Shown here: piece by piece, positions 45,361-64,000 of the stretch
Position numbering within the stretch: position 1 is the stretch's first letter
Layout of the letters: every line of letters begins with the position of its first letter
Source: a virus
Strand: one strand, 5' to 3'
DNA: 64,000 nt
Virus record (IMG/VR): IMGVR_UViG_3300045988_179014
Location: 32,001 to 96,000 of that record
The notes under the pieces: generated by a model
Database searches by the model: none
What the model was told of the DNA's origin: nothing
The model's input: the letters and a program-made list of their open reading frames with translations, nothing else
Made by a program: the position numbers and the translations under genes

Positions 45361-45717
45361 GTAAAAACTCCGATTTGACCGTATTTTATCTACACATTAT
45401 TTTAACAAAGGAGATACAACCTACTATATTGGACTCAACCAAACACTAGACTATAATCAGTATTTAATATACGTCTTATTATAATCAAACTCTCCCAAAC
45501 GAATTTGATACGAAACCATTCATCGTATAAAACAACGAAACACTTCCTTCAATGCCGTTTATATTGATTTATGAACTGTAAAATGTTTTTAGATTGTGAA
45601 GAAGGGTTCCGTATTTATGGTAAATATATTTTTCTAATGCTTGGGAAACTATATGATTTTAGGTGTTTATTAAAATAATAATATAATGTACCCACATTGA
45701 AGTATAATTGTTAATTG

Positions 45718-46815
45718 TTACTCATTGTTGCGTGATTCCATTATTTTTTGAAGTTTGGACAATTTATCCAAACCTTTCACAATTGCAATTTCCAAATGAA
45801 TACGTGAATCTGCTCCGAGAGTCATGTGTCGTAATGACTCGCCGATTTCTTGAGCCATGATTTCAACACCTTTGCGACCAAGAAGCCCTTTTGCAACATT
45901 CTTGAGATTTTTCACAGGAGGAACAGCAACAAGTGTTTTGTCAGCTCCACAAATGAGAAGCAATAAATCACGCAAATCGGAGAACAGCTGCTCAGCCAAA
46001 TCCTGTCCTTCATATCCTTGTGAATGTGCTTCAGCTATCACCTCTAAACAACGACTCAGGTTTCGGGTTCCAAGCGCTTCCAACAGTTCAGCTTCCACAG
46101 GTGTTGCAATGTCTCCAGTGGATAGAATCCCCTCTAAAGCGCTGAGAGCATCACGTACCGAACCTCGCCCCTGTCGTACAGCTTCGTCGATTTGCGCTTG
46201 CTCTACAGCAATGTGTTCCTTCTCAAGAATGCTGACTAGAAAATCCGACATCACATTAGGTGTTACCAGACCAAAACGACGTGCTTGAATACGAGAATGG
46301 ATAGTGTCTGGTACTTTCTCCACTTCTGTTGAACACAAGATGAACAAAGCAGGCATGTCTTTGTCTTCCAGCGGAATCAGTAAAGCGTCAAAAGCGGCTT
46401 TCGACAGATTGTGCACTTCATCCAAAATCCACACTTGTCTTTTTACCGGCGCACTTAACCGAGCGCGTTGAACCAGTGTACGTACATCATCCACAGAACC
46501 GTTATTGGCCATGGAGATATAGTTCACCCCTAATTGGCTCCCTGAATCAATAGCAGTGCAAACATCGCACTGGTTACATGGGTTCCCTTCAGGTTGAATA
46601 TTCAAACAGTTGATTGCTTTGGCCAACAGGAGAGCGCTGGATGTTTTACCAGTGCCTCTAGGCCCAAAAAACCCATAAGCAGTCGGTAGAGCGTTCTTCA
46701 TCACTGCTGCCTGTAAACTGCGTGCTACTTTCTCTTGTCCCACCAAATCGCTCCATACGGCAGGACGGTATTTTTTGTACAACTCAACATGTGTGGACGA
46801 ATCTTGATTAGTCAT
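45718..46815 (-). CDS. dnaX: DNA polymerase III clamp-loader subunit gamma/tau.
   Basis: KYRP motif, Walker A GPRGTGKTS, zinc module CNQCDVCTAI, SRC-like sensor. Confidence 0.9.
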   Translation of the reverse strand: MTNQDSSTHVELYKKYRPAVWSDLVGQEKVARSLQAAVMKNALPTAYGFFGPRGTGKTSSALLLAKAINCLNIQPEGNPCNQCDVCTAIDSGSQLGVNYISMANNGSVDDVRTLVQRARLSAPVKRQVWILDEVHNLSKAAFDALLIPLEDKDMPALFILCSTEVEKVPDTIHSRIQARRFGLVTPNVMSDFLVSILEKEHIAVEQAQIDEAVRQGRGSVRDALSALEGILSTGDIATPVEAELLEALGTRNLSRCLEVIAEAHSQGYEGQDLAEQLFSDLRDLLLLICGADKTLVAVPPVKNLKNVAKGLLGRKGVEIMAQEIGESLRHMTLGADSRIHLEIAIVKGLDKLSKLQKIMESRNNE

Positions 46816-46831
46816 GGTTAAATTCTACCTC

Positions 46832-48322
46832 TCAGGATTCTTCAACTGGAACATCAAAAACTTCGTCACCAACAGACAATTGATGAATATAACGTTTCAC
46901 AGCTTTGGGTTTCCCTTCATCTGTTCGTTTGACCACACCTTTTTGTCCAGACACGATAATTCGTTCACTCGAACCATCTTCATATGTCAGTTGATAGGTG
47001 GCTCCACGTCCAGCCGATAAGAAGCGTTCAAAAATGAGGTCATGTTCAATGGGGTCAATTTCGGAAATTCCCAACTCATATGCGTGAATGGACCCACCAA
47101 TGGACCCACGACCCACACCAATGGAGGATGCCAAGATTTCATCTCCTTTGCCTTTGGTGGAGTATAGGTCACGGGTATGCACCAAATAGTCTCGCACCAC
47201 CAACATGTATCCAATGAAATCTGATGAGTGGATAACTTCAAACTCATGCTTATTGCGACGCATGGCTTCTTCCTGAATTTCTCGTGGTTTCCCGCCATAA
47301 CGTTGCTTGAAACCTTCCTTCAACAGATGACGGTAATATTCCACTTCATCATGGAATTCAGGTGGAATAACTGGTCGCGGTTTCAGATGCGGATTGAAGT
47401 TCAAGCTGATATCTGAAGCCATTTCAGTAATTGCCAACGAATTGGTCAAAGCGTCAGGAAACTCATCAGGTGGAAACAATGCTGCCATTTCTTGAGCTGA
47501 TTTCAGATAGTATTCATCCCCACTGAATGCGAATCGTCGTCCACCTTCATCATAAGTCGCATCAGACATTCGTGAACCAGATTGGACACACAACATTTCT
47601 TCATGTGCTTTGAAGTCTTTCTTGTGCGCATAATGGCAATCATTTGTCACCAACAGAGGCAATTGAAGTTTTCGAGCCATTTCCAATTGTTTTGGCAATA
47701 ATGCTCGTTCCAAATCAATTGGCATGTTGTGGTCCATTATCTCCATGAAAAGTTTGTCTTGGAAAACTTCTTTCAGCTGATTGGCATGGTTGTATGCTTG
47801 TTGGTCTTGTCCCAACAGGAATCTGGTGCTGATTTCTGATGATGGACAGCCTGTTGCCACCACCAATCCTTCAGCATGGTCTGCTAACATGCCAAAATCA
47901 ATTCGTGGTCTCTGGAAAAAATGTGCCGGGTCGTTTGAAAGAGTGGACAGTTTGAACAGATTTGTCAATCCCACATTGTTGTAAGCCCATACTGTAATGT
48001 GAAGATAGGCCCCACCTGCTGACACATCATTGGCCGCCCCGCGTTTACCATTATTGCCATAGAACACAGGTTCCAACAATTTGGCTCCTTCTGGATTCAC
48101 AGGCGCCATGTAAAATTCGCAGCCGGGAACGGGAATCATACCAGCGTCACGTACTTTCTTGATGAATCCATAAAGACCGAACACATTTCCATGGTCTGAT
48201 TGTCCCAACCCACGCATACCAAAATCTGATGCCACTTGAATGTATTCAGAATCCTTGGAATAACCATCCAACATGGAATTATGAGTATGTGTATGAAGTG
48301 AAACATATTCTGGTTCAGTCAT
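46832..48322 (-). CDS. dnaE: DNA polymerase III alpha subunit, N-terminal part (PHP domain plus start of palm), split from the core.
   Basis: PHP signature VSLHTHTHNSMLDGY. GVGRGSIGGSIHAYELGISEIDPIEHDLIFERFL matches the DnaE palm entry. It ends just before the position of the PDIDIDF motif that opens ORF 42604..45360. Confidence 0.8.
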   Translation of the reverse strand: MTEPEYVSLHTHTHNSMLDGYSKDSEYIQVASDFGMRGLGQSDHGNVFGLYGFIKKVRDAGMIPVPGCEFYMAPVNPEGAKLLEPVFYGNNGKRGAANDVSAGGAYLHITVWAYNNVGLTNLFKLSTLSNDPAHFFQRPRIDFGMLADHAEGLVVATGCPSSEISTRFLLGQDQQAYNHANQLKEVFQDKLFMEIMDHNMPIDLERALLPKQLEMARKLQLPLLVTNDCHYAHKKDFKAHEEMLCVQSGSRMSDATYDEGGRRFAFSGDEYYLKSAQEMAALFPPDEFPDALTNSLAITEMASDISLNFNPHLKPRPVIPPEFHDEVEYYRHLLKEGFKQRYGGKPREIQEEAMRRNKHEFEVIHSSDFIGYMLVVRDYLVHTRDLYSTKGKGDEILASSIGVGRGSIGGSIHAYELGISEIDPIEHDLIFERFLSAGRGATYQLTYEDGSSERIIVSGQKGVVKRTDEGKPKAVKRYIHQLSVGDEVFDVPVEES

Positions 48323-51360: not shown

Positions 51361-51376
51361 TATACCGGAGGGTTCG

Positions 51377-51412
51377 TGGAGCTGACGGGATTCGAACCCG
51401 TGTCTTGACAGT
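51377..51412 (-). other. tRNA 3'-end fragment (T-arm plus acceptor 3' strand) with no matching 5' half.
   Basis: Minus strand reads ACGGGTTCGAATCCCGTCAGCTCCA. No complementary GGAGCTG within 150 nt. A 9-bp hairpin lies next to it at 51441-51482. Confidence 0.4.
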
Positions 51413-51841
51413 CATACACTTGAAATCTACAAACATAGTGACGGTTAAAAATTTTATGATAAACCTTCCTATAACCGTCACCAAAGTGTTGGAAGGGTGT
51501 TATCACAGTCCAAATAAGCTGGTTTCTTCACAGACTGATAGAAGAGCAGCGATTCCCTGAACGACACTGGATTCACAGGAACGGGAATCAGTTTCCTGTG
51601 CCAGTGGATTACACAGCTAGGGTGTAATCATCTTGGATAGCATTGGCAGCTATTTTTGCGAGCCTGTTTTACACCTCTTACTCAAAGGTGGTTTGCCTTC
51701 ATAATGTATTTAACTTTCAATCGATACCATTCAGCCCCAAGACTGAGAATACATCCATTATATCAACATTGGCGCAGAAGTCAAATGCTTGCAAGACCAA
51801 CCACACTTGCAAACAACATGATTCATTCTTGTGAAAACATG

Positions 51842-55363: not shown

Positions 55364-55584
55364 TGTGCCAATTTCTCGAACTCTTCATCCAATGCGGTCA
55401 CGAGCTGTTCATGAGGCAGGTTTGGATTAGGCCATGATAATTCAGGTGGCGGAACAGGCTGAATAGGGGCATTCTTTGCAAAACTGTGTAACCATGTCAT
55501 AATACTCATATAACCATTTTACGACATGACATGGTTGAGAAAAAGTAATGGGACCCAAGAGTATTCTCATTAGGTCCCGTATAG

Positions 55585-55658
55585 TTGCGGAGGCAGGATT
55601 TGAACCTGCGACCTCCAGATTATGAGCCTGGCGAGCTACCGAACTGCTCCACTCCGCT
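55585..55658 (-). tRNA. tRNA-Met (CAT), initiator-like.
   Basis: Cloverleaf with anticodon loop CUCAUAA. A1:A72 mismatch plus A73. D and T arms nearly identical to E. coli tRNA-fMet, but only one G-C pair among positions 29-31:39-41 of the anticodon stem. Confidence 0.8.
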
Positions 55659-55936
55659 ATGTGTTGTTAACAATATCAATATACTCAATATACTGAATAC
55701 AAAAGACATTGTATCAAAAGTACACAAATCCGTGTTCATGTTGAAGTTGTTGGTGAGGGGTGATGGGCTTGCACCATCATCTCTCAACAGTCCACTTTCT
55801 AGTGCGTTGAGCGGATTGTCTTTTCCGGAACTGGGTTAATTACTCCCAATTCGGCCCGGAAACACCTGTCCTAACTCCTGCATGTCTTATGCGCACTCAA
55901 CACGCAGCGATTGGACCAGCTTATCCCAACCCCTCG

Positions 55937-56024
55937 CGGAAGCGACACGATTCGAACGTGTGGCCTCTAAGAAAGAGACTCTGGTTTTCGAAACCAGCGC
56001 AATAAACCTCTCTGCCACGCTTCC
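55937..56024 (-). tRNA. tRNA-Ser (CGA).
   Basis: Acceptor GGAAGCG/CGCTTCC, anticodon loop TTCGAAA, long variable arm, T-loop TTCGAAT. Confidence 0.85.
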
Positions 56025-56098
56025 AAAATGTCAGGTTATCCCAAACAAATAAATTGTACCATATTATTCCAGTTCTACAACAGATGTTACTATAAAAC

Positions 56099-56584
56099 TC
56101 AAAAATGTGTTTCAAGTTGTCGCACTTTGATACCCACAGTCTTGAACATACGCTGTGCTGCTATGAACTCCCACCTGTTCCAATCAGGTTCAACAGCATA
56201 CACTACTTCTCGAATACCAACTTGGATGATTTCCTTGGCACATTCATTACACGGATACAAAGTCACATAAATGGTGGCATCTGTGAACTCGCGTAACGAA
56301 CCCCGAAAATTCAAAATAGCATTACGTTCTGCATGCACCACATATGGATACTTGTTCTCCAATGGGTCAGTCTCAGTTTTACACCACGGAAAGTCATGGT
56401 CATCAAACCCGTTAGGAGCGCCATTGTAGCCAATTGTGAGAATACGACGGTCCTGAGTCACCACACAGGCTCCTACTTGGGTTACAGGGTCTTTGGAGCG
56501 CTTCCCAGCTACCTCAGCCATCGCCATGAAAGTTTCATCCCATGTAGGAACTGTTTTACGAGCTTTACTCATCATTCCATCCAA
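56099..56584 (-). CDS. dCMP deaminase (ComEB/Dcd family cytidine/deoxycytidylate deaminase).
   Basis: Zinc motifs HAERNAI and PCNECAKEII. Confidence 0.85.
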   Translation of the reverse strand: MDGMMSKARKTVPTWDETFMAMAEVAGKRSKDPVTQVGACVVTQDRRILTIGYNGAPNGFDDHDFPWCKTETDPLENKYPYVVHAERNAILNFRGSLREFTDATIYVTLYPCNECAKEIIQVGIREVVYAVEPDWNRWEFIAAQRMFKTVGIKVRQLETHF

Positions 56585-57315
56585 CCGTAATTTTCAGAAT
56601 CAGTGGATTTATGTACTAATGAAAATAAAACACCAGTATATTCCAAAGTATTGTCACGTTTGCTTCCGTCAAAATGGAAGAATTTATGCACCAATGCAGC
56701 TAGAGTGATGTATGCTTCTTCCACAGTTTTACCATATGCGTTCAACTGTGGATTGTAGTAATGATTGGTGTATTCAGGAGCTATGTGTTCGCCAGCTTCC
56801 ACTTCCCACATATGGGGTTGATTGTTATGAGATGGGACAGGGAACAATTCCACCTGACGAGCATAGCCATTTTGATTCCAGCGCCAAGTAGATTGATTCT
56901 TGTCTCTAGTCCAAAAAGCTGGATGTTGGTCAATGAAACCATATGCTTTGAGAAAATCAGTAGGGTCTTTCTCCCACTCAGACGCCAACTCTAAAAACAT
57001 CTGATACTGATAACGTAATATTTGTTCTCTTTGCTGGTCAGTTACGGTAAAGCATAAACTCGTTCCATCAGTTTTCGTGGCTGGAGCATAGATACGTTGT
57101 TGGTCATGTTCAACTTCTGGGAGAGTCTCTGCAAATGCAAAATTCAGGTCTTTGGATACTGCCCAAGCATAGGCTTCAATAAATGTGTCAAAGTGTTTCC
57201 CAGAAATTGTATACTGTCCGTCCACGTATTCTAGATGTTGAATGGGGCGTGGAGTCGGAACCAAAGACCTCATCCACTCAGGAAGTTCAGGCAAAATCTC
57301 TTTGTTATCAGTCAT
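56572..57315 (-). CDS. Hypothetical protein.
   Basis: 247-aa ORF, Trp/Tyr-rich, no motif. Confidence 0.45.
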   Translation of the reverse strand: MTDNKEILPELPEWMRSLVPTPRPIQHLEYVDGQYTISGKHFDTFIEAYAWAVSKDLNFAFAETLPEVEHDQQRIYAPATKTDGTSLCFTVTDQQREQILRYQYQMFLELASEWEKDPTDFLKAYGFIDQHPAFWTRDKNQSTWRWNQNGYARQVELFPVPSHNNQPHMWEVEAGEHIAPEYTNHYYNPQLNAYGKTVEEAYITLAALVHKFFHFDGSKRDNTLEYTGVLFSLVHKSTDSENYGWME

Positions 57316-57464
57316 ATTTCCTACTTAGACATGTTCTGGCACACAATCAGTTTAACCAATTTTTAATGTTGAAATTTGTGGAACAATCAACACCAATCAG
57401 ACACAGTAACAGGATGGAACAGTTGATGGTTCGTTTAACATCAAACCATATGTCTATATGATTT

Positions 57465-57522
57465 ATATGGCTAAAAAACGACAAAAACTCCCATTATGTC
57501 TCAATTAATACATAATGGGAGT
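57465..57522 (-). terminator. Rho-independent terminator ending the minus-strand tRNA/ncRNA cluster transcript.
   Basis: 12-bp stem actcccattatg / cataatgggagt, followed on the minus strand by TTTTTGTCGTTTTTT. Confidence 0.55.
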
Positions 57523-57547
57523 CATAAATATTGCTACAACAATTAAA

Positions 57548-57580
57548 CCTACCCACCATGTTTCATGAGGTAGGTAGTAA
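57548..57580. terminator. Second strong hairpin, possibly a bidirectional terminator.
   Basis: cctacccaccatg ttt catgaggtaggtag palindrome with T-rich flanks. Confidence 0.35.
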
Positions 57581-57618
57581 TTGTTGTTTGTTGTATTTGC
57601 TAAACAACAGAGAACACG

Positions 57619-57726
57619 TAAGATTGGTATTTTAACGTGCTACCATTACACCAAGGTCCCATGTAGTGGAACCTGTAGGAATCGAACCTACACCTTTCCG
57701 GTTCAAAAGGAAGTAACCAATCTCCC
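57619..57726 (-). ncRNA. Y RNA-like element: a circularly permuted tRNA-like module (T-arm, acceptor stem closed by a 7-nt loop, D-arm) enclosed by a long terminal stem.
   Basis: Minus strand reads GAGATTGGT...GTAGGTTCGATTCCTAC AGGTTCC actacat GGGACCT TG GTG TAATGGTAG CAC...ACCAATCT. AGGTTCC pairs 7/7 with GGGACCT. The terminal 8-bp stem pairs 57621-28 with 57716-23. No canonical anticodon arm. The Ro60 gene is about 4 kb away on the same strand. Confidence 0.45.
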
Positions 57727-57870
57727 ACATCTGTTGATAGCATCAGTCCAGGAATCAATCCTTACCATTATAGGAGTTAGACTGAACTATTCAATTGTAT
57801 AAATTATATCATACATATACTTTTAGAGTATGAGTTCCATAGAGTATCTATCTATTGATGATGATTTTAG

Positions 57871-57944
57871 TAGCTGAGGAGGGATTCGAACCCTCGACCT
57901 TACGATTATGATTCGCATGCTCTAACCAACTGAGCTACTCAGCC
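57871..57944 (-). tRNA. tRNA-Met (CAT), elongator or Ile2 (lysidine) type.
   Basis: Acceptor GGCTGAG/CTCAGCT (G1:U72 wobble), anticodon loop ATCATAA, T-loop TTCGAAT. Confidence 0.85.
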
Positions 57945-57976
57945 AAGCGTGAGTTGAATTCTATATTATGTTATTG

Positions 57977-58050
57977 CGCCCTTGGCAGGATTTGAACCTG
58001 CGACCTTTTGCGTCGGAAGCAAATGCTCTATCCAACTGAGCTACAAGGGC
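57977..58050 (-). tRNA. tRNA-Arg (CCG).
   Basis: Acceptor GCCCTTG/CAAGGGC, anticodon loop TTCCGAC, T-loop TTCAAAT. Confidence 0.85.
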
Positions 58051-58144
58051 CAACTATATACTGTATACTAATTGGAGATGTGAAATTTCCATCTGTAACC
58101 TTAACTCTACTTAAGGTTGCTACACGAATTCTATAAGAAGAGGA

Positions 58145-58528
58145 TTAGGGAACTACATCATTTTTCCGAAAAACATTAATCCAATTTTCGCGAGAACCTG
58201 TGATGATGCCCTCGGAAAGCAATCTATCTACTTCTTCACTAATCCTTGCATCTCGTACTTGTGCTTTATGAATTGTCTCATAAGAACGGATATCATCAAT
58301 GGTTGGGGCTACATCTGATGCATAATCCCCACCTCGCATGAATGAATCTGACTGGATGGTTTCTACATTGAAAATTTGCCTGATTTTTTCATCAATCAGG
58401 TAGTGGTCACTCACAAGGGCTAATTTTCCATTTACATATAACGCTGACCAGTCCTCAGACCCTTCATATACAACATAACTAGTCATTTTTCCTCCGCATC
58501 TGTGTAGAGCGCATGGATGTTGTAGCAA
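58145..58528 (-). CDS. Hypothetical protein.
   Basis: 127-aa ORF between tRNA groups. Confidence 0.35.
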   Translation of the reverse strand: MLQHPCALHRCGGKMTSYVVYEGSEDWSALYVNGKLALVSDHYLIDEKIRQIFNVETIQSDSFMRGGDYASDVAPTIDDIRSYETIHKAQVRDARISEEVDRLLSEGIITGSRENWINVFRKNDVVP

Positions 58529-58535
58529 TATAGTA

Positions 58536-58793
58536 TTAGTTAGACTTTATTCTTCCAGAAAATTCGTTCCAAAGAGCTTCGACTTGAGCAAGATTTTTGG
58601 GACGAATATACTGACTTAGTTCGAAGCTGGGAAATGGTGTATTCATGGATAAAAATTCAACCCCAATAGCTTGACCATCAGGGTTAGCATCCAATAAAAC
58701 CTTGTCCGTTACCTGAACGCAATGCTCAGGCAATCCCGGTTTGAGAGTGACGTATAAACCATTATTACGTCTTTCTGCTTTAAAACGAGCCAT
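58536..58793 (-). CDS. Small DUF2283-like protein.
   Basis: 85 aa. ...NGLYVTLKPG...VLLDANPDGQAIGVEFLS... resembles the YDxxxDxLYIxL family. Confidence 0.3.
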   Translation of the reverse strand: MARFKAERRNNGLYVTLKPGLPEHCVQVTDKVLLDANPDGQAIGVEFLSMNTPFPSFELSQYIRPKNLAQVEALWNEFSGRIKSN

Positions 58794-58880
58794 TATACAC
58801 CTCCTGGATTTTTAGTATTCTAGACCCATAATCGACAAAAACCACATAGAGTTCAATCCATGTGGCTGTTTGTACTATAG

Positions 58881-58951
58881 CTGGGGTAGCAGGAATCGAA
58901 CCTACATTTCCGCATCCAAAGTGCGGCGTGATGCCGTTACACCATACCCCA
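58881..58951 (-). tRNA. tRNA-Gln (TTG).
   Basis: U1:A72 acceptor TGGGGTA/TACCCCA as in E. coli tRNA-Gln. Anticodon loop CTTTGGA. Confidence 0.85.
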
Positions 58952-58958
58952 ATAATAA

Positions 58959-59036
58959 TGGAGCCCCCTGTGAGATTCGAACTCACGACCTTTCGCTTAC
59001 AAGGCGAATGCTCTAACCAGCTGAGCCAAGGAGGCA
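58959..59036 (-). tRNA. tRNA-Thr (TGT), CCA encoded.
   Basis: Acceptor GCCTCCT/AGGGGGC, anticodon loop CTTGTAA, 3' TCCA. Confidence 0.85.
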
Positions 59037-59038
59037 TT

Positions 59039-59112
59039 GAAGACAGAGAACAATTCGTTGATAGTAATTAATATTGTTAATTGTGAAGTAACCATCAACT
59101 TCACTTCTGTCT
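59039..59112. repeat. Conserved structured spacer element, copy A.
   Basis: Core aattgtgaagtaaccatcaacttcacttct identical to 63633-63662. Outer stem gacagag/ctgtc shows compensatory changes relative to copy B (agatagag/ctatct). Confidence 0.5.
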
Positions 59113-59186
59113 TGGAGCGGATAACGGGATTCGAACCCGTACTAACAGTTTGGAAGACTGGTGTGCTGCCTTTGACACTACATCCG
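59112..59186 (-). tRNA. tRNA-Gly (TCC), CCA encoded.
   Basis: Acceptor GCGGATG/TATCCGC, anticodon loop CTTCCAA, 3' TCCA. Confidence 0.85.
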
Positions 59187-59346
59187 CAAGCGTACTGGTT
59201 GTTTCCTGGAGCCAGTACATAAAAACCGTATCACTTTGCGACAGTGACAGGAAACACGGTCGAACCCAACACTCAGATGCGGTTGAGTTGATGATTACAT
59301 CTGTTGGTTCTTTTTTAAATCAGGTCGCAACTGACCGCACCCAATG

Positions 59347-59419
59347 TGGACCAGAAGGGAATCGAACCCTCAGCCTCTTGTCTGCCAGACAAATGCTCTA
59401 CCAATTGAGCTACCAGCCC
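59347..59419 (-). tRNA. tRNA-Ala (GGC).
   Basis: G3:U70 pair present. Anticodon loop CTGGCAG. T-loop TTCGATT. Acceptor contains two further G-U wobbles. Confidence 0.8.
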
Positions 59420-59425
59420 TTATCG

Positions 59426-59498
59426 AGCGGACAACGGGACTCGAACCCGTAACCTTTACCTTGGCAAGATAATGCTCTACCAATTGAGCTATGTCCGC
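59426..59498 (-). tRNA. tRNA-Gly (GCC).
   Basis: Acceptor GCGGACA/TGTCCGC, anticodon loop TTGCCAA, T-loop TTCGAGT. Confidence 0.85.
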
Positions 59499-59606
59499 AT
59501 AACAACATTGATTGCAGAGTTTCTAAGAGCCAATGGGGGCCTTAGCGTTAGCGACGCCCATTCCCGACGCACCCTGCAATCAATGCGTTACCCAACCTAC
59601 GTTGGA

Positions 59607-59721
59607 GATGAAAGATTAACACCTTATGCCACTATTGGGAATCGAACCCAAGCCGCTCCTTTTCCGAGGAGTATTCTCCCATTAAAATATGGGACACAAA
59701 GGTTAATCTTTCATGATTGTT
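59607..59721 (-). ncRNA. Second tRNA-like element: a T-arm plus acceptor-like 3' strand with two upstream hairpins, all enclosed by a 13-bp long-range stem.
   Basis: atgaaagattaac (59610-22) pairs with gttaatctttcat (59703-15). Inside lies TTGGGTTCGATTCCCAA TAGTGGCA on the minus strand, with no matching 5' acceptor strand. Confidence 0.3.
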
Positions 59722-59804
59722 TTGGCAGTACCTATTCTGCCATTGAACTAAAACACTAAGTGAAGGTAACTGTCCGAAACCTGCCAATAACAGTTACCTT
59801 CCGA

Positions 59805-59877
59805 GCCGCCATCGGGAGTCGAACCCGAGACCTCTTTCCTACCAAGAAAGTGCTCTACCAACTGAGCTATAACGGCA
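59805..59877 (-). tRNA. tRNA-Thr (GGT).
   Basis: Acceptor GCCGTTA/TGGCGGC, anticodon loop TTGGTAG, T-loop TTCGACT. Confidence 0.85.
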
Positions 59878-59895
59878 GATAATTATTATTCCGAG

Positions 59896-59971
59896 CCATC
59901 TATGGGATTTGAACCCATGACTTCCCCATTACGAGTGGGGTGCTCTACCAAAAACTGAGCTAAGATGGCAA
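59896..59971 (-). tRNA. tRNA-Thr (CGT).
   Basis: Acceptor GCCATCT/AGATGGC, anticodon loop CTCGTAA, T-loop TTCAAAT. Confidence 0.85.
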
Positions 59972-59977
59972 CATTTG

Positions 59978-60052
59978 GCGCTCCTAGTAGGACTCGAACC
60001 TACACTCAATGGTTTAGGAAACCATGACTCTATCCTATTGAGCTATAGGAGC
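59978..60052 (-). tRNA. tRNA-Arg (CCT), CCA encoded.
   Basis: Acceptor GCTCCTA/TAGGAGC, anticodon loop TTCCTAA, 3' GCCA. Confidence 0.85.
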
Positions 60053-60066
60053 CCATAGATTGTTGT

Positions 60067-60140
60067 CTGGGAGGTAGGATTTGAACCTACGACTTCTCGC
60101 GTCCGAGGCGAGCGACCTACCAAACTGGCCTACACCCAGA
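60067..60140 (-). tRNA. tRNA-Pro (CGG).
   Basis: C1:G72 as in bacterial tRNA-Pro. Anticodon loop CTCGGAC. One U:U mismatch at 6:67. Confidence 0.7.
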
Positions 60141-60167
60141 TATTTGGTAATTTGCTGTTTACTAAGT

Positions 60168-60241
60168 GGCCCCGGTGGGACTCGAACCCACACTGTACAG
60201 GTTTTGAAGCTGTCCCCTCTACCAATTGGGGTACGGGGCCA
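60168..60241 (-). tRNA. Type-I (short variable arm) tRNA, most likely anticodon CAA (leucine codon UUG). Identity uncertain.
   Basis: Acceptor GGCCCCG/CGGGGCC, A73, D-stem CCCC/GGGG, T-loop TTCGAGT. The anticodon arm fits only as ACAGC-TTCAAAA-CCTGT with one C:C mismatch. The variable loop is only 5 nt. Confidence 0.55.
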
Positions 60242-60277
60242 TTGACCATAATATAAGTTCGTAGTTTTTATGATAGT

Positions 60278-60350
60278 ACCCCGAACGGGATTTGAACCCG
60301 TGTTACCGCCTTGAAAGAGCGGTGTCCTAGGCCACTAGACGACCGGGATA
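60278..60350 (-). tRNA. tRNA-Glu (TTC).
   Basis: D-arm GTCTAGTGGCCTAGGAC as in tRNA-Glu. Anticodon loop CTTTCAA. T-loop TTCAAAT. Confidence 0.8.
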
Positions 60351-61153
60351 TGTAGGAGAGTTAGAATTGCTCTCCTAATGACAACCTTTTGCTGGATTAT
60401 GGTTTCCCAGCGTTTCCACGATGTCCCCACCGTAGTTGCCGCGCCTGGTTGCTATGGACCAACCACTCCTTATGTCGTACACTACTCCACAGATTTGGTT
60501 TCGACAAGCGGTTGCAAGCCGCTCATCTGCACTACTTTCTTATGAACACAGTTTGACCTTGCGAGTCGCACCATGGCTGAGTTCCGGAATACGGCTCAGC
60601 ATTAAGACGCTTTCATATACAACAGGAAAAGGCTTTTGCTTTCTGCTAATCTCTCATTCCACGAATGAATATGGGGTATGACTAGAGATGTGCTTTTCCA
60701 TGAAGTTCCGCAACCTTTTGGGCTACAGAATGCTTCACACCTCTACTGCTTTCGTTGTCACACTACTTACAGTCTCGTTCTCATCTTGAACTCGCCAATC
60801 CAAGACTTAAACTCATGGTATCCGCTCTTGCTTGACAGGCTCGAACTAAATACCTCGCATCACAAGTCATTTATCCTTGTTGTTTGTCTTCTCTGTCCAC
60901 TTTGCGTAAGTGGCTGTGCTACACCGATTGGCTCTCGCACAGATGAAGCAACTCGGATAAATGGCATCCTACTCCTTTTGTAGAATGCGCCTTGGTGCAG
61001 TGCATGAAGTGCCTCTTGCGAGGTGGCAGGCTGTCAAACCCACCTTTCGCCATCTTGCGATGGTTTATGCGTCATGCCGCGTCGTCAGGGAAGAAGTTTT
61101 GACACTTCATGATACAGAAATCATTCATCTACATGATTCCCTGTTATGTAATG

Positions 61154-61228
61154 TGCCCTTGAGAGGACTCGAACCTCCAACCTTCTGAGTCTAAGTCAGA
61201 TGCCTCTACCAGATTGGGCTACAAGGGC
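61154..61228 (-). tRNA. Type-I tRNA with anticodon TAG (leucine codon CUA).
   Basis: Perfect anticodon stem TCTGA/TCAGA with loop CTTAGAC. 5-nt variable loop. A73. T-loop TTCGAGT. Confidence 0.65.
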
Positions 61229-61386
61229 ATTAATATTCCTTGGTATTCACTGATTACTCTCGCTATAAAAACAAGAATAATCAGTGAACCAAGTAGCTAG
61301 ACTTATAGGGGCTACCCCGGCTAGCACCATGCGTTAGGGAGACCAACCAAGTTGACCTCCCCCTCAATGAGGACCTGAATCCTCAG

Positions 61387-61473
61387 CGGAGACGGCAGGA
61401 TTCGAACCTGCGGAAGGGATTGACCTTCACCCGCTTTCCAAGCGAGCGCTTTAGGCCTCTCAGCCACGTCTCC
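61387..61473 (-). tRNA. tRNA-Ser (GGA).
   Basis: Acceptor GGAGACG/CGTCTCC, anticodon loop TTGGAAA, long variable arm, G73. Confidence 0.85.
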
Positions 61474-61640
61474 ATTTAAGACTCTCTCTGAAGTTATCAT
61501 TTTCATGGTAGTTGTTGCTACTACTTTACCAGCTTAACCCATGGATTCCAATTTGTCAAATCGAGGTATTCCTCCAAACTTGGTCCATTCTTCAGTTGGT
61601 TTTACCAGTTTAACACACCTTTGAAAGCTATGTCAACTAG

Positions 61641-61732
61641 TGGCGGAGGACAAGGGAATCGAACCCTTACCGGAGTTGAATCCGGCCCTGTTTTCAAGAC
61701 AGGTGCAGCAACCCAATATCTGCCTGTCCTCC
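61641..61732 (-). tRNA. tRNA-Ser (TGA), CCA encoded.
   Basis: Acceptor GGAGGAC/GTCCTCC, anticodon loop CTTGAAA, long variable arm, 3' GCCA. Confidence 0.85.
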
Positions 61733-61791
61733 ATGGAGTTGTTGAATCAGTATACCATAGATTACACATTGATTCAACAACCACTATTGTT

Positions 61792-63375
61792 TTACTTTTC
61801 CCAAGGCCAACCAGTATCGAATCCTCTTTCAATGAGAGGAATCGTCTGGAACCCCTTATCAGACAATCCACCAAACGTGAATCGTCCGGGTTTATTGACA
61901 GCTTGTGCAGCTTCGTATCCAGCAAGATTCCAGGTAAAGGTTGGAACATTTGTTGGAACAACACCTTCAAATACGTCCACTGTACCACTATTGTAGTAAC
62001 GATTGTATCCAAAATAACCGTTCTGCTCATCGGTCAATAGGATTACTCTATCATGACCATTGTAGGCAGTTTCCAACGCAATACGTGTGTCAGTACCTCC
62101 AAAAGGCGCTGGCATGGCTTCTGCTACTCGAAGTAGGTCGTTTGAACGAATTTCCTGTTTCGTTGCCGAATCGTTGTACGTCCATACTTCTGCATTTTCC
62201 GCTCGCAGTGCTAGAGCAGCTGCAAACATATTAGCTGCATCTGAACGCAGTAATGTGCCTCTTCTTGACATATACGTATACATGGAACCGGAATTGTCAA
62301 CCAGAATAAGTGTACGTCCTGCCAATTGAGGAATATTGGATAGAGCGCCATTCGCCCCTTGTTGAAGCGCACCTGCAAAATCAAGCGGAGCTGACCGGTA
62401 AGCAGCCAAAAATTCTATAGGCATGGTGCGAGAATTTGCTACCAGTTTTTCATCTGCCAAAATGCTGTTGATTTTAGCAATAGTAGCAGGGCCAACACCT
62501 GAATCTGCAATACGACGTAAGTTCATACGCAACGCTTGATACCCCATGAAGGGAACGAGATTATCCCATACTTCAGCAGGAATCTTCCCCAAAGCTCCTG
62601 CCACAACTTCATGAGTCAACCGCGCTTTTCGGATGACGCGTTCAGCTTCATTCCCCGTTAGAAGTTCAACCTGTGCAGTCTTACTCAATGCCAAGAATTC
62701 ACGTCGTGCTTTGATGATGGGAAGGTTGCTGTCATCAAAATCGCGATTGTATGCATCAGCAATAACTGCATTGAATAAAGCTTCTTGGTGGATATCCTTT
62801 GGTGTGGGATGTGTCAGGTTTAACACATCTCGAAGTGACACAGCACCATTGGAAGCACGTCCACGCCACTTCAAAAAGGAAGTCTCGGTAAATAGGGTAT
62901 TCAGTGCATCTCCAACCCCACGTTTGACACATGAGGGGATACGGCGTCCATATCGAGACATCCAATACGCCAATACATCTGACGCTTCATCAATACGACC
63001 AATAGTAGCTCGTATAATGCCACGGTTCTTTCCAGCCAGTCCAGCATCCAACCGTGCTTTTACTGTTTCCACCGCAATAATGGTTGGGACTGAACGCAAT
63101 CCTACAACATTCCGTAGCCAACCGACTAAACCATGAACCCAATCAGCATCCATGGCAACATTGGATACTAATTTACTAATACGGTCTTGTCGTTCTTCTG
63201 CGGTTTCATAAAATGTGTCCTCATTGAGTGAAGTTACTGCGGTCAAGAACAGCTCGGAACGAGGGTCACGCTTATACCCAAATCCCCCTTCAGGATTTTG
63301 AATAACTTGACCAGTTGTTGATAATGGTCCTACAACATTCCGAACCTTCGTATTAGCATTGTTTAAACGAGCCAT
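61792..63375 (-). CDS. rsr: Ro60-like protein: TROVE domain with C-terminal von Willebrand A (MIDAS) domain.
   Basis: TROVE-like helical HEAT region in the N-terminal 350 aa. C-terminal vWA with a DxSxS MIDAS motif (LILVDNSGSMY). Adjacent to the tRNA array and the Y RNA-like module. Confidence 0.75.
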   Translation of the reverse strand: MARLNNANTKVRNVVGPLSTTGQVIQNPEGGFGYKRDPRSELFLTAVTSLNEDTFYETAEERQDRISKLVSNVAMDADWVHGLVGWLRNVVGLRSVPTIIAVETVKARLDAGLAGKNRGIIRATIGRIDEASDVLAYWMSRYGRRIPSCVKRGVGDALNTLFTETSFLKWRGRASNGAVSLRDVLNLTHPTPKDIHQEALFNAVIADAYNRDFDDSNLPIIKARREFLALSKTAQVELLTGNEAERVIRKARLTHEVVAGALGKIPAEVWDNLVPFMGYQALRMNLRRIADSGVGPATIAKINSILADEKLVANSRTMPIEFLAAYRSAPLDFAGALQQGANGALSNIPQLAGRTLILVDNSGSMYTYMSRRGTLLRSDAANMFAAALALRAENAEVWTYNDSATKQEIRSNDLLRVAEAMPAPFGGTDTRIALETAYNGHDRVILLTDEQNGYFGYNRYYNSGTVDVFEGVVPTNVPTFTWNLAGYEAAQAVNKPGRFTFGGLSDKGFQTIPLIERGFDTGWPWEK

Positions 63376-63504
63376 GATAACCTCTCTTTACGGTTTATAC
63401 AGGGGATATCGCTGGTGTTTTGAATCCACTGAGAACCAGCAAAACAAATACTGTTTGCCATAATTCTGGTCAGTATTTGTTTATTACATCAGGGATTGAT
63501 TTTG

Positions 63505-63578
63505 CGACCCGTACCGGACTCGAACCGGCGACCTCTGCCGTGACAGGGCAGCGCTCTAACCAACTGAGCTAACGGGCC
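63505..63578 (-). tRNA. tRNA-Asp (GTC).
   Basis: Acceptor GGCCCGT/ACGGGTC, anticodon loop CTGTCAC, T-loop TTCGAGT. Confidence 0.85.
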
Positions 63579-63590
63579 ATATTTTGTATT

Positions 63591-63669
63591 ACAAGATAGA
63601 GAATAATTTGTTGATGGTGGGTTAATATTGCGAATTGTGAAGTAACCATCAACTTCACTTCTATCTTGT
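63591..63669. repeat. Conserved structured spacer element, copy B.
   Basis: See copy A. Outer stem aagatagag/ctctatctt. Inner stem gttgatgg/ccatcaac and hairpin gtgaagt/acttcac are mutually exclusive alternatives. Confidence 0.5.
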
Positions 63670-63726
63670 GTAGTTCTATAGTCAATTATTCAACACAAAT
63701 CAACATGTGTAGAAATATGTTGTTGT

Positions 63727-63811
63727 GTCCATGATGGGAGTCGAACCCACACGCCCTTACGGACACTGCGCCCTCAACACAGCCTGTCTACCAAATTTCC
63801 AGCACATGGAC
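63727..63811 (-). tRNA. tRNA-Leu (GAG), type II.
   Basis: Acceptor GTCCATG/CATGGAC, A73, anticodon loop TTGAGGG, long variable arm, T-loop TTCGACT. Confidence 0.8.
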
Positions 63812-63936
63812 AAAATAATATATTAATTAATCTTAATAATTCTATGTTATTGTAACAATACCTTATCTGTTTTCAATAAAGCTTGTACATTGAAAATTGC
63901 TTTATTGACCATTGTTCTTTTTTTTACTAGTTTGGG

Positions 63937-64000
63937 TACGGATGACTGGATTCGAACCAGTGACCTTTTCCGCGTCATGGAAATGCTCTACCAACTGAGC
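63937..64000 (-). tRNA. tRNA-Val (GAC), 5' end cut by the window edge.
   Basis: D-arm GCTCAGTTGGTAGAGC, anticodon loop ATGACGC, T-loop TTCGAAT, acceptor 3' CATCCGT + A73. Confidence 0.75.

What the first reader, a model, noticed from the sequence alone, without database searches (positions are those of the whole stretch)
57619..63375. Ro60 (TROVE-vWA) gene with a candidate Y RNA built from a circularly permuted tRNA module
The 527-aa minus-strand ORF has the TROVE plus MIDAS-vWA organisation of Ro60/Rsr. Within the same minus-strand tRNA array, at 57619-57726, there is an element with the following properties:
- The T-arm and acceptor 3' strand (GTAGGTTCGATTCCTAC AGGTTCC) come first.
- A 7-nt loop follows.
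- Then come the complementary acceptor 5' strand and a D-arm (GGGACCT TG GTG TAATGGTAG CAC).
- The whole module is closed by an 8-9 bp terminal stem (57621-28 with 57716-23) where a tRNA would have its anticodon arm.

Bacterial YrlA-type Y RNAs have exactly this layout: a tRNA mimic with the acceptor closed into a hairpin, and a long helix formed by the RNA ends that carries the Ro60-binding site. Both the Ro60 gene and this module sit in a phage-like tRNA array.
Basis: partly seen in the sequence, partly recalled or inferred. Interest (0 to 1): 0.7.

Follow-up and report, generated by a model that had tools for sequence, protein, structure and literature searches.

The report
Phage Ro60 gene with Y RNAs

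Summary
Window 57605-57736 (-) folds as outer stem, internal loop, inner stem, UUAC, V hairpin, T arm, closed 7-bp acceptor-like hairpin and D arm. All 35 proposed pairs are canonical.

A covariance model built only from similar elements beside rsr genes in other viral contigs, without the window, hits it full length (57 bits, E about 1e-12). tRNA-tRNA junctions score 35 bits or less. Across 31 copies the four helices are 96% paired, and 21 of 23 pairs show double-sided changes. The tRNA 15:48 tertiary pair covaries; the window has A:U.

The 527-aa ORF is a Ro60/Rsr protein (TROVE plus vWA/MIDAS; profile hits to Ro60 crystal structures).

New here: two shorter Y RNAs (63591-63669 and 59040-59113, minus strand). 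They share the stem, loop, stem and UACUUC module but lack the tRNA-like part.

Caveats:
- Rfam YrlA (RF02553) gives only 19.4 bits against a threshold of 69.
- The published CGAA motif is replaced by UGGGA/UGAA.
- There are no expression or binding data.

Verdict: a new member of a known kind (Chen 2014; Wang 2018; Thermus phage phiLo 2025). Interest is modest.

The parts
61792..63375 (-). rsr: Ro60/Rsr-type protein, 527 aa (TROVE HEAT-repeat ring plus vWA domain with a MIDAS DxSxS motif, LVDNSGSM)
   Evidence: The ORF is listed. Pfam TROVE scores 27.8 bits against a cutoff of 23. PHROG 850 'RNA-binding protein' scores 2.9e-40. There are 969 homologs carrying PF05731, PF13519 and PF25045. The family profile hits PDB 9KOP/9L5Y (phage phiLo Ro60) at 2e-41, 1YVP (Xenopus Ro60) at 2e-11 and 2NVO (D. 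radiodurans Rsr) at 4.5e-9. D360, S362, S364, T428, T430 and D449 are invariant in 32 homologs.
57605..57736 (-). Y RNA A: YrlA-class Y RNA with a tRNA-like (circularly permuted) domain, about 132 nt
   Evidence: Model R1, built without the window, scores 57.0 bits, E 1.1e-12, model positions 1-135. All 35 of 35 pairs are canonical. Family covariation is shown. RF02553 gives a full-length alignment at 19.4 bits.
57730..57736 (-). A: outer stem, 5' strand CAACAGA, pairing with 57605-57611 (UCUGUUG)
   Evidence: Read directly. Pairs are listed. The same outer stem is aligned by RF02553.
57724..57729 (-). A: 5' side of the internal loop, UGUGGG, at the position of the GCG[A/C/U]AG (CGAA-type) presumed Rsr-binding motif of relatives
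   Evidence: Alignment A5. Relatives have GGUGCG(A/C/U)AGG. L061 and the window's elements B and C have AGUGAAG.
57716..57723 (-). A: inner ('anticodon-stem-like') stem, 5' strand AGAUUGGU, pairing with 57621-57628 (ACCAAUCU)
   Evidence: Helix 1 of A5 has 8 of 8 pairs with double-sided changes. Compensatory changes are seen in L061.
57696..57715 (-). A: UAC-UU followed by the V hairpin (UUCC-UUUUGAACC-GGAA). U57716-U-A-C is the family's YUAY.
   Evidence: Read directly. (U)UACUUC is nearly invariant in A5 and A6. YUAY is described in PMC4201824.
57675..57691 (-). A: T arm, GUAGG-UUCGAUU-CCUAC. U57692 just before it is the position-48 equivalent.
   Evidence: Helix 2 of A5 is 100% paired, and the G53-C61 equivalent is invariant.
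57654..57674 (-). A: closed acceptor-like hairpin (AS), AGGUUCC-ACUACAU-GGGACCU, 7 bp
   Evidence: Helix 3 of A5 has 6 of 6 pairs with double-sided changes.
57637..57653 (-). A: U8-G9 equivalents and the D arm, GUGU-AAUGGUA-GCAC (A14, A15, G18 and G19 equivalents)
   Evidence: Helix 4 of A5 has 4 of 4 pairs with double-sided changes. A15:U48 fits the family's 15:48 covariation, which is 10 G:C and 10 A:U.
57612..57620 (-). A: 3' side of the internal loop, UACGUGUUC, ending in the family-wide UUCUC(U) block
   Evidence: Alignments A5, A6 and A8.
63591..63669 (-). Y RNA B: short Y RNA. Outer stem ACAAGAUAGA/UCUAUCUUGU, loop AGUGAA/AAAUUAUUC, inner stem GUUGAUGGU/ACCAUCAAC, apical loop starting UACUUC. 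No T, AS or D arms. It lies about 215 nt upstream of the rsr start and 12 nt before tRNA-Asp.
   Evidence: Model R2, built without the window, scores 33.8 bits, E 7e-7, full length. R1 scores 23.1 bits. Sequence is, the fold, and family covariation (14 of 17 pairs).
59040..59113 (-). Y RNA C: second short Y RNA with the same architecture, wedged between tRNA-Gly (59113-59187) and tRNA-Thr (58959-59035)
   Evidence: R2 scores 26.7 bits, E 6e-5, full length. R1 scores 28.4 bits. Sequence is and tRNA coordinates.
57473..57522 (-). Terminator-like hairpin: 13-14 bp stem ACUCCCAUUAUGU/ACAUAAUGGGAGU, 10-nt loop, then UUUUUGUCGUUUUUU. It lies about 80 nt after Y RNA A.
   Evidence: Sequence and fold. 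The simple terminator scan missed it because its loop limit is 3-8 nt. The terminator role is inferred.
57767..57794 (-). Sigma-70-like promoter match, TTGAAT-16-TATAAT, about 30 nt upstream of Y RNA A (weak evidence)
   Evidence: 10 of 12 matches, but such sites are no more frequent here than in shuffles (2 found, 3.1 expected).
55584..64000 (-). Context: minus-strand tRNA array (20 tRNA genes, plus one cut by the window end) in which rsr and the three Y RNAs are embedded
   Evidence: ARAGORN and Rfam.

Best explanation
The locus is a phage-borne Ro60/Rsr ribonucleoprotein module: the rsr gene plus three co-oriented Y RNA genes scattered through the phage's tRNA array.

Element A (57605-57736) is a YrlA-class Y RNA. 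Its two ends pair into an outer stem, an asymmetric internal loop and an inner stem. That module is shared with the two short RNAs B and C and is the presumed Rsr-binding site. Its middle folds into a tRNA-like L: V, T, closed acceptor-like hairpin and D, with an A15:U48 pair and the G18G19/T-loop elbow.

Shown here:
- sequence and structure homology to Rsr-adjacent YrlA-type RNAs;
- covariation in all helices;
- same-strand linkage to rsr in about 49 of 57 related viral loci.

Inferred by analogy with D. radiodurans, S. Typhimurium and Thermus phage phiLo:
- The stem-loop-stem docks on the outside of the Rsr ring.
- The tRNA-like elbow recruits a tRNA-binding or exoribonuclease partner, such as host PNPase. 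The RNP would then degrade, trim or quality-control structured RNAs during infection.
- The RNAs are probably cut out of the polycistronic tRNA transcript by RNase P and 3' tRNA-processing nucleases, because they abut tRNA genes.
For: 1. Independent model test. R1 was built from 8 copies next to rsr in other contigs. It hits the window at 57603-57733(-), full length, 57.0 bits, E 1.1e-12. The best tRNA-junction false positives score 35 bits.

2. Covariation. In 31 copies, 96% of cells are paired, 21 of 23 pairs have double-sided changes, 0 of 500 shuffles reach this, and slid controls give 38-47%.

3. tRNA tertiary signature. Positions 15:48 are 10 G:C and 10 A:U, with the window A:U. The window also has U8, A14, GG in the D loop and a UUCGAUU T loop. 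When re-permuted with a synthetic anticodon loop, ARAGORN calls the sequence a tRNA.

4. Linkage. All R1 and R2 hits in 57 rsr loci are on the rsr strand, mostly within 0.5 kb upstream. In L061 (Rsr 61% identical) the YrlA-type copy lies about 6 kb downstream of rsr and is syntenic with the window. It scores 58 bits and has compensatory changes in the T and inner stems.

5. The protein is Ro60/Rsr.

6. B and C are the only two window hits of model R2, which was also built without the window. Their family has 14 of 17 covarying pairs.

7. The published YrlA layout is the same. Binding of phage Ro60 to phage Y-like RNAs and to PNPase has been shown for phiLo.

8. The five differences between the window and L001 within A all fall in unpaired positions.
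Against: - Rfam YrlA RF02553 scores only 19.4 bits (gathering score 69, E 0.05 in a 151-nt search) and is not reported in larger searches.
- The published 5' motif GNCGAAN0-1G is not present. A has GAUGUGGGAG, and B and C have AGUGAAG.
- The plain MFE fold prefers an alternative that breaks the T and D arms.
- A lies 4.06 kb from rsr, just past the 4-kb criterion of Chen 2014.
- There is no transcript, end-mapping, modification or Rsr-binding evidence.
- The seed copies for R1 were picked with a regular expression modelled on the window's layout. The seed therefore shares the window's layout partly because of how it was chosen. Its location beside rsr and its flanking motifs were not selection criteria.
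- E-values from the shortened calibration are rough.
Confidence: 0.87

Rival explanations
1. A is not a gene of its own. It is debris of the tRNA array: the 3' part of one decayed tRNA followed by the 5' part of the next, or a D-armless pseudo-tRNA in which the V hairpin is really an anticodon arm.
For: tRNA-tRNA junctions in the same array give partial R1 hits of 23-35 bits. The Rfam tRNA model aligns 57667-57726 at 25.4 bits (gathering score 29), reading UUCC-UUUUGAA-CCGGAA as an anticodon arm. The analogous stretch of Gordonia phage VanLee is annotated tRNA-Arg in GenBank.
Against: - ARAGORN calls no tRNA between 57400 and 57869, and the tRNA score is below threshold with two mismatched acceptor pairs.
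- The two acceptor-like strands are perfectly complementary across a 7-nt loop, which independent neighbouring tRNAs need not be.
- The same permuted order is conserved with compensatory changes in 31 copies linked to rsr, including the syntenic L061 copy.
- The flanks carry Y-RNA motifs (UUACUUC, UUCUCU) shared with the non-tRNA-like elements B and C.
Confidence: 0.03
2. A is a true circularly permuted tRNA gene, as in the red alga Cyanidioschyzon merolae (from my own knowledge). Its transcript would be circularised and re-opened to give a decoding tRNA.
For: The 3' half precedes the 5' half. The re-permuted sequence is accepted by ARAGORN once a synthetic anticodon loop is supplied.
Against: There is no anticodon loop. 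Where it should be, the RNA ends in an 8-bp stem, a 6/9-nt internal loop and a 7-bp stem, and ARAGORN rejects the version with the native stem. There is no CCA or discriminator context in the 7-nt AS loop. The layout co-occurs with rsr rather than filling a codon gap. The permuted-tRNA pathway needs an archaeal/eukaryal splicing endonuclease (established knowledge).
Confidence: 0.01
3. A is the acceptor piece of a two-piece (permuted) tmRNA or another tmRNA-like element.
For: There are weak partial Rfam hits to cyano_tmRNA (20 bits, gathering score 70) and tmRNA_permuted (17.6 and 15.3 bits, gathering score 47). They cover only the T arm and the closed acceptor.
Against: The scores are far below threshold and cover only 38-43 nt. 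There is no tag reading frame and no pseudoknots. A complete standard tmRNA already lies at 51374-51738. The D arm, V arm and Y-RNA flanks are unexplained by this reading.
Confidence: 0.01
4. A is a genuine YrlA-derived RNA that no longer works with Rsr, because its 5' loop has diverged (UGUGGG in place of the GUGAAG/GCGAAG type). It would be a relic or would have been re-purposed, for example as a decoy for tRNA-binding host factors. B and C would be the working Rsr partners.
For: A's loop differs from B, C and L061 (AGUGAAG) and even from L001 (UGUGAG). A is the copy farthest from rsr.
Against: All stems are intact, and every window-versus-L001 difference spares paired positions. The 3' UUCUCU block and UUACUUC are retained. 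The position is syntenic in L061.
Confidence: 0.07

Closest known systems
YrlA of Salmonella Typhimurium and its orthologs (Rfam RF02553; Chen et al. 2014, PMC4201824; structure in Wang et al. 2018, bioRxiv 10.1101/312249)
   Same: The order of elements is the same: 5' strand, YUAY, V, T, closed acceptor-like stem, D, 3' strand. The tRNA-type T loop, the D-loop GG and the 15:48 pair are present. It lies on the same strand as rsr. RF02553 aligns it end to end.
   Different: It scores only 19.4 bits against RF02553. It has a V hairpin and a 7-bp AS, whereas Salmonella YrlA has a 6-bp AS. The CGAA motif is absent. It lies 4 kb downstream of rsr inside a phage tRNA array, not in an rsr-yrlBA-rtcBA operon.
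YrlA-like RNAs of actinobacteria and their phages (M. smegmatis YrlA and 22 phages in Chen 2014; found here in Gordonia phage VanLee and Arthrobacter phage Atuin)
   Same: It has a 7-bp AS like M. smegmatis YrlA, which is an RNase P substrate. The V arm and UUACUUC are present. Multiple copies occur per locus. In Atuin the Ro gene also sits inside a tRNA array with YrlA-type copies downstream.
   Different: The window's genome has low G+C (44% against about 60%). The Rsr proteins are only 36-39% identical. The 5' loop motif differs (GUGGGAG against GCG(A/C)AG).
Short Y RNAs: Salmonella YrlB, and Thermus phage phiLo Yrl1/Yrl2 bound to phage Ro60 (PMC12135203; PDB 9L5Y)
   Same: B and C have the stem, large internal loop, stem design described for Yrl1 and Yrl2, and they lie close to a phage Ro60 gene. 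phiLo Ro60 is the best PDB match of the window's protein family.
   Different: B and C carry UGAA rather than CGAA. My model R2 does not detect the published upstream phiLo RNAs, so homology to them is not shown.
D. radiodurans Yrn1 and metazoan Y RNAs
   Same: The two-module logic is the same: a Ro-binding helix formed by the RNA ends plus an effector-binding module.
   Different: No sequence homology was detected. Yrn1 lacks a full D arm, and metazoan Y RNAs have no tRNA-like domain.
Circularly permuted tRNA genes (Cyanidioschyzon merolae) and two-piece tmRNAs
   Same: The T arm and acceptor 3' strand precede the acceptor 5' strand.
   Different: There is no anticodon loop and no tag ORF. 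The acceptor is meant to stay closed. Only weak partial Rfam hits are found.

Membership tests
YrlA-class Y RNA | Encoded near a Ro60/Rsr gene (within about 4 kb in Chen 2014) and on the same strand | tested here: met
   It is on the same strand. It lies 4,056 nt downstream of the rsr stop (61792 against 57736), marginally beyond 4 kb. The syntenic L061 copy is about 6 kb downstream.
YrlA-class Y RNA | T-arm-like stem-loop with a tRNA-type T loop | tested here: met
   GUAGG-UUCGAUU-CCUAC. Helix 2 of A5 is 100% paired.
YrlA-class Y RNA | Closed acceptor-like stem-loop (AS) between the T and D arms | tested here: met
   It has 7 bp and a 7-nt loop. In A5, 6 of 6 pairs covary.
YrlA-class Y RNA | D-arm-like stem-loop with GG; U8, A14 and 15:48 tertiary-pair potential | tested here: met
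   UG-GUGU-AAUGGUA-GCAC with A15:U48. Across the family, 15:48 is 10 G:C and 10 A:U.
YrlA-class Y RNA | YUAY followed by a V stem-loop upstream of the T arm | tested here: met
   UUAC, then UUCC-UUUUGAACC-GGAA. UACUUC is nearly invariant in relatives.
YrlA-class Y RNA | The 5' and 3' ends pair to form the Ro-binding stem | tested here: met
   Outer stem 7 bp, inner stem 8 bp. The inner stem covaries at 8 of 8 pairs.
YrlA-class Y RNA | GNCGAAN0-1G motif near the 5' end | tested here: not met
   There is no CGAA in 57600-57760. The aligned position reads GAUGUGGGAG. Some relatives also have GUG in place of GCG (L010, L043, L045, L061).
YrlA-class Y RNA | Reaches the Rfam RF02553 gathering score (69 bits) | tested here: not met
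   It scores 19.4 bits, E 0.05. Clear copies beside the Ro gene of phage VanLee also fail (47 and 33 bits), so the threshold excludes divergent phage members.
YrlA-class Y RNA | Bound by Rsr in vivo; carries tRNA modifications (pseudouridine 55, dihydrouridine) | not testable with these tools
   This needs RIP or EMSA and modification mapping.
Ro60/Rsr protein | TROVE (HEAT-repeat ring) domain | tested here: met
   Pfam PF05731 scores 27.8 bits against a cutoff of 23. The family profile hits 1YVP, 9NEN, 2NVO and 9KOP.
Ro60/Rsr protein | C-terminal vWA domain with a MIDAS motif | tested here: met
   LVDNSGSM is present. D360, S362, S364, T428, T430 and D449 are invariant in 32 homologs. Homologs carry PF13519 and PF25045. 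The alignment to phiLo Ro60 runs through this region.
Short (YrlB / Yrl-type) Y RNA, for elements B and C | Stem, large internal loop, stem hairpin next to rsr that shares the Ro-binding motif of the local YrlA | tested here: met
   R2 hits score 33.8 and 26.7 bits and are the only two in the window. The AGUGAAG, GGUUACUUC and UUCUCU blocks are shared with YrlA-type copies. In this family, 14 of 17 pairs covary.
Short (YrlB / Yrl-type) Y RNA, for elements B and C | Sequence homology to the experimentally studied YrlB or phiLo Yrl1/Yrl2 | tested here: inconclusive
   R2 finds no hit in the region upstream of phiLo Ro60. There is only an 18.4-bit hit downstream of the gene. Salmonella YrlB was not available to test.
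Permuted tRNA gene | Anticodon stem-loop that can be reconstituted after circularisation | tested here: not met
   There is no 7-nt anticodon loop. ARAGORN rejects the re-permuted sequence with the native stem.
Two-piece tmRNA | Tag reading frame and pseudoknots; score above the Rfam threshold | tested here: not met
   It scores 15-20 bits against gathering scores of 47-70, over the T arm and AS only.

The most novel reading that the evidence does not exclude
In this phage clade the Y RNAs are working members of the tRNA operon. They sit flush against tRNA genes, with spacers of 0-12 nt in the window and in L061. RNase P and tRNA 3'-end processing would therefore release them ('tRNA punctuation').

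On this reading, Rsr with three alternative Y RNAs acts as a surveillance or decay device dedicated to the phage's own RNA island (tRNAs, tmRNA, GOLLD). It might, for example, clear misprocessed or host-cleaved tRNAs. It would use a recognition motif that has drifted from the canonical CGAA to UGAA/UGGGA together with its Rsr.
Probability: 0.2. Interest if true: 0.55.

Novelty: new member of a known kind. Interest (0 to 1): 0.3.

Why it matters
Ro60/Y RNA particles are conserved from bacteria to humans, where Ro60 is a major autoantigen. What the tRNA-like domain of bacterial Y RNAs recruits is still unknown.

This locus adds a divergent, unannotated lineage. It is a low-G+C large phage with one YrlA-type and two short Y RNAs interleaved with about 20 tRNAs, a GOLLD RNA and a tmRNA.

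It matters in three practical ways:
- It shows that Rfam's YrlA model and standard annotation miss such genes.
- It shows that the 'CGAA' motif is not obligatory.
- The tight packing against tRNA genes suggests a maturation route that can be tested.

It does not change the concept, which was published in 2014-2025.

Tried and rejected
- Rfam at gathering thresholds on the window and on six related loci found no Y RNA family. A 601-nt E-value search found none either. Only the 151-nt search showed RF02553, at 19.4 bits.
- Megablast of 57300-63500 against 50,697 phage records matched tRNA-sized fragments only, so there is no close cultivated relative.
- My regular-expression screens for T-AS-D modules gave many false positives at tRNA-tRNA junctions. 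I used them only to pick seeds.
- MAFFT of 20 copies, and of the 9 closest copies, misaligned the 3' halves. Covariation was therefore counted on the model-guided alignment A5, which leans towards the model structure.
- Plain MFE folding does not recover the T and D arms.
- The terminator scan found nothing because of its loop-size limit, although a 13-14-bp hairpin plus U-tract is visible. The promoter-like site is no better than chance.
- R2 did not recover the published phiLo Yrl1 and Yrl2.
- I considered and rejected four readings: a tRNA junction or pseudo-tRNA, a permuted tRNA gene, a two-piece tmRNA, and an attP-type tRNA fragment. The last does not explain the complementary 5' acceptor strand and D arm or the linkage to rsr.
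- The 52-aa mechanical ORF 57600-57758 (-) overlapping A was not pursued. The substitution pattern (compensatory changes in stems) is that of an RNA.

Full report
**What is there.**
On the minus strand, the stretch 57736-57605 reads as follows:
- CAACAGA, the outer stem 5' strand;
- UGUGGG;
- AGAUUGGU, the inner stem 5' strand;
- UAC-UU;
- UUCC-UUUUGAACC-GGAA, the V hairpin;
- AGGU;
- GUAGG-UUCGAUU-CCUAC, the T arm;
- AGGUUCC-ACUACAU-GGGACCU, the closed acceptor-like hairpin;
- UG;
- GUGU-AAUGGUA-GCAC, the D arm;
- GUUAAAAU;
- ACCAAUCU, the inner stem 3' strand;
- UACGUGUUC;
- UCUGUUG, the outer stem 3' strand.

All 35 pairs of this fold are canonical. ARAGORN tRNAs and a tmRNA on the same strand but nothing between 57400 and 57869. 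The 527-aa ORF is at 61792-63375 (-).

**The protein.**
- Pfam TROVE passes its cutoff.
- PHROG 850 'RNA-binding protein' scores 2.9e-40.
- There are 969 homologs, many carrying TROVE plus VWA_2 and PF25045.
- A profile of 32 homologs hits Thermus phage phiLo Ro60 (9KOP/9L5Y, 2e-41), Xenopus Ro60 (1YVP, 2e-11), human RO60 (9NEN) and D. radiodurans Rsr (2NVO, 4.5e-9).
- The MIDAS residues (D360, S362, S364, T428/T430, D449) are invariant.

It is a Ro60/Rsr ortholog.

**Is the RNA a Y RNA?**
Chen et al. 2014 describe YrlA as a 5' motif, YUAY, V, T, AS (closed acceptor) and D, on the rsr strand. Wang et al. [quoted passage not shown] The window element has exactly this order.

I collected 57 viral loci encoding relatives of the protein. 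I then built covariance model R1 from eight T-AS-D elements lying just upstream of rsr in six distant loci. The window and its 97%-identical relative L001 were left out.

R1's best hit in the 64-kb window is 57603-57733(-): full length, 57.0 bits, E 1.1e-12. Junctions of adjacent tRNAs reach at most 35 bits.

R1 finds full-length copies on the rsr strand in 26 of the 57 loci. It also finds them in the cultivated Gordonia phage VanLee and Arthrobacter phage Atuin.

On the 31-copy model-guided alignment, 96% of cells pair and 21 of 23 pairs have double-sided changes. No shuffle of 500 reaches this, and slid controls give 38-47%.

The tRNA Levitt pair covaries: 10 G15:C48 and 10 A15:U48, with the window A:U.

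Re-ordering the window's halves around a synthetic anticodon loop yields a sequence that ARAGORN accepts as a tRNA. The native order, and the native stem closed by a loop, are rejected.

1. Rfam does contain YrlA (RF02553, gathering score 69 bits). It is silent on the window in the gathering search and the 601-nt search. It gives a full-length but weak alignment (19.4 bits, E 0.05) when only 151 nt are searched. It also fails its threshold on the clear VanLee copies (47 and 33 bits), which R1 scores at 59 and 93 bits. The curated model is therefore too narrow for these phage lineages. The link from the window to RF02553 is transitive rather than direct.

2. The terminal stem is conserved with compensation (helix 1 of A5). 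L061, whose Rsr is 61% identical, has a 58-bit copy. Its T stem changes from GUAGG/CCUAC to GCUGG/CCAGC. Its inner stem changes from AUUGG/CCAAU to GUCGG/CCGGC.

3. L061's copy is syntenic. It is followed by a homolog of the window's 247-aa ORF (34% identity, E 2e-45) and then by a dCMP deaminase. No ordinary tRNA occupies the site. Within A, the window and L001 differ at five positions, all unpaired.

**Two more Y RNAs.**
R1 also gave short 'full-model' hits that delete the whole tRNA-like part.
- B, at 63669-63591: ACAAGAUAGA, AGUGAA, GUUGAUGGU, a loop starting UACUUC, ACCAUCAAC, AAAUUAUUC, UCUAUCUUGU.
- C, at 59113-59040, with the same plan.

Model R2 was built from ten such hairpins of other loci. 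It finds exactly these two in the window, at 33.8 and 26.7 bits. It finds one or more just 5' of rsr in 46 of the 57 loci, always on the rsr strand. With R1, 49 of the 57 loci have at least one Y-like RNA. Their family shows 14 of 17 covarying pairs.

A, B and C share the same module: an outer stem ending in AGA/UCU, a 6-nt over 9-nt internal loop, an 8-9-bp inner stem ending in GGU/ACC, then UACUUC, with UUCUCU on the 3' strand.

This module is the natural candidate for the Rsr-binding site. It corresponds to the 'stem-bulge-stem with CGAA' of phiLo Yrl1 and Yrl2, except that C is replaced by U (B, C) or the motif reads UGGGA (A).

**Organisation.**
- rsr and the three RNAs are co-oriented inside the tRNA array.
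- C fills the gap between tRNA-Gly and tRNA-Thr.
- B ends 12 nt before tRNA-Asp.
- In L061 the short RNAs abut tRNA-Gly and tRNA-Asp with no spacer, and the YrlA-type copy starts 2 nt after tRNA-Thr.
- A is followed by a 13-14-bp hairpin and a U-tract.
- A TTGAAT-16-TATAAT match upstream is no better than chance.

From this I infer co-transcription with the tRNAs and release by tRNA-processing enzymes.

**Mechanism.**
Shown: homology, structure, and linkage to rsr.

Inferred from D. radiodurans, Salmonella and phiLo:
- The paired ends dock on Rsr.
- The tRNA-like elbow recruits a partner. PNPase is the precedent, and elbow-binding tRNA enzymes are the published guess.
- The RNP then handles structured or damaged RNA during infection.

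Nothing here tests binding or expression.

**Rivals.**
Four other readings are each contradicted. These are a tRNA junction or pseudo-tRNA (sub-threshold tRNA hit of 25.4 bits), a true permuted tRNA, a two-piece tmRNA (15-20-bit partial hits) and an attP fragment. They conflict with the perfect closed acceptor, the absence of an anticodon loop or tag ORF, the covariation, and the rsr linkage.

A softer rival remains open at low probability: that A has lost Rsr binding because its loop diverged.

**Verdict.**
The element is a divergent, unannotated member of the known YrlA class, with two previously unnoticed short Y RNAs. It sits in a large uncultivated phage; the closest match is IMG/VR UViG 3300045988_187329.

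Novelty is at the level of a new member. Interest is modest. The mildly new points are the loss of the CGAA motif, the dispersal of the Y RNA genes through a tRNA, GOLLD and tmRNA island, and the tRNA-flush gene borders.

Noticed in passing
window 60357-60745 (-): A GOLLD RNA (Rfam RF02032, 222.8 bits, E 9e-62, full model) sits inside the same tRNA array, between tRNA-Glu and tRNA-Leu. The roughly 400 nt upstream of it (60746-61152) carry no called gene and may belong to it.
   Followed up: no
window 51374-51738 (-): A phage-encoded standard (one-piece) tmRNA with tag peptide ANAIQDDYTLAV (ARAGORN, and Rfam at 111 bits).
   Followed up: no
window 59040-59113 and 63591-63669; L061 9715-9798, 9873-9958 and 17548-17686: The Y RNA genes abut tRNA genes with spacers of 0-12 nt, both in the window and in a relative whose Rsr is 61% identical. 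This suggests their ends are made by RNase P and tRNA 3' processing.
   Followed up: partly
L060 (Gordonia phage VanLee NC_073474) 3704-3775, within the YrlA-like hit 3707-3840: The GenBank 'tRNA-Arg(tct)' overlaps the 5' part of a 93-bit YrlA-type RNA. The Rfam tRNA model scores it 26.9 bits, below its threshold of 29. It is probably a mis-annotated Y RNA. The window shows the same sub-threshold tRNA reading at 57667-57726 (25.4 bits).
   Followed up: partly
L059 (Arthrobacter phage Atuin OK040794) 7746-8331 and 5444-5518: The Ro-like gene lies inside a tRNA array. The unannotated gap after it holds three YrlA-type hits (84.5, 40.7 and 36.5 bits). There are also two weak short-form hits. None of these is annotated in GenBank.
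   Followed up: partly
L002 4932-4984, and the same place in L003-L009 and L034: A second kind of permuted element lies about 5 kb upstream of rsr: a T arm (GAGGG-UUCGACU-CCCUC) followed by a closed hairpin. It lacks the Y-RNA flanks. Its identity is unknown; it may be the acceptor piece of a two-piece tmRNA.
   Followed up: no
L061 5083-7874; L064 6905-9413: In closer relatives, rsr is neighboured by several genes of tRNA and translation maintenance. These are genes for a PolyA_pol/CCA-adding-type nucleotidyltransferase, a TilS-like ATP_bind_3 protein and an RF-1-domain protein. Together they look like a tRNA/translation maintenance island.
   Followed up: no
L058 (Thermus phage phiLo) 4472-4546: Model R2 gives a weak hit (18.4 bits, E 0.005) with GGGUACUUC and CCGACU blocks just downstream of the Ro60 gene, overlapping the annotated CDS phiLo_25. 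The published Yrl1 and Yrl2, which lie upstream, are not detected by R2.
   Followed up: no
window 42604-48322 (-): DNA polymerase III alpha appears split into two ORFs: PHP plus the N-terminal part at 46832-48322, and the finger/HHH part at 42604-45360. A clamp-loader-like gene (45718-46815) lies between them. The window also encodes an NAD-dependent ligase, GyrA, a RadA/KaiC-like ATPase and a T2SSE ATPase.
   Followed up: no
L011-L028, L036, L037 and L039 at about 9880-9968: Many rsr-carrying viral contigs have only the short Y RNA form directly 5' of rsr. No YrlA-type copy was found within 10 kb on either side of rsr. Eight loci (L028, L030, L032, L035, L051, L053, L055, L057) gave no hit with either model.
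   Followed up: partly
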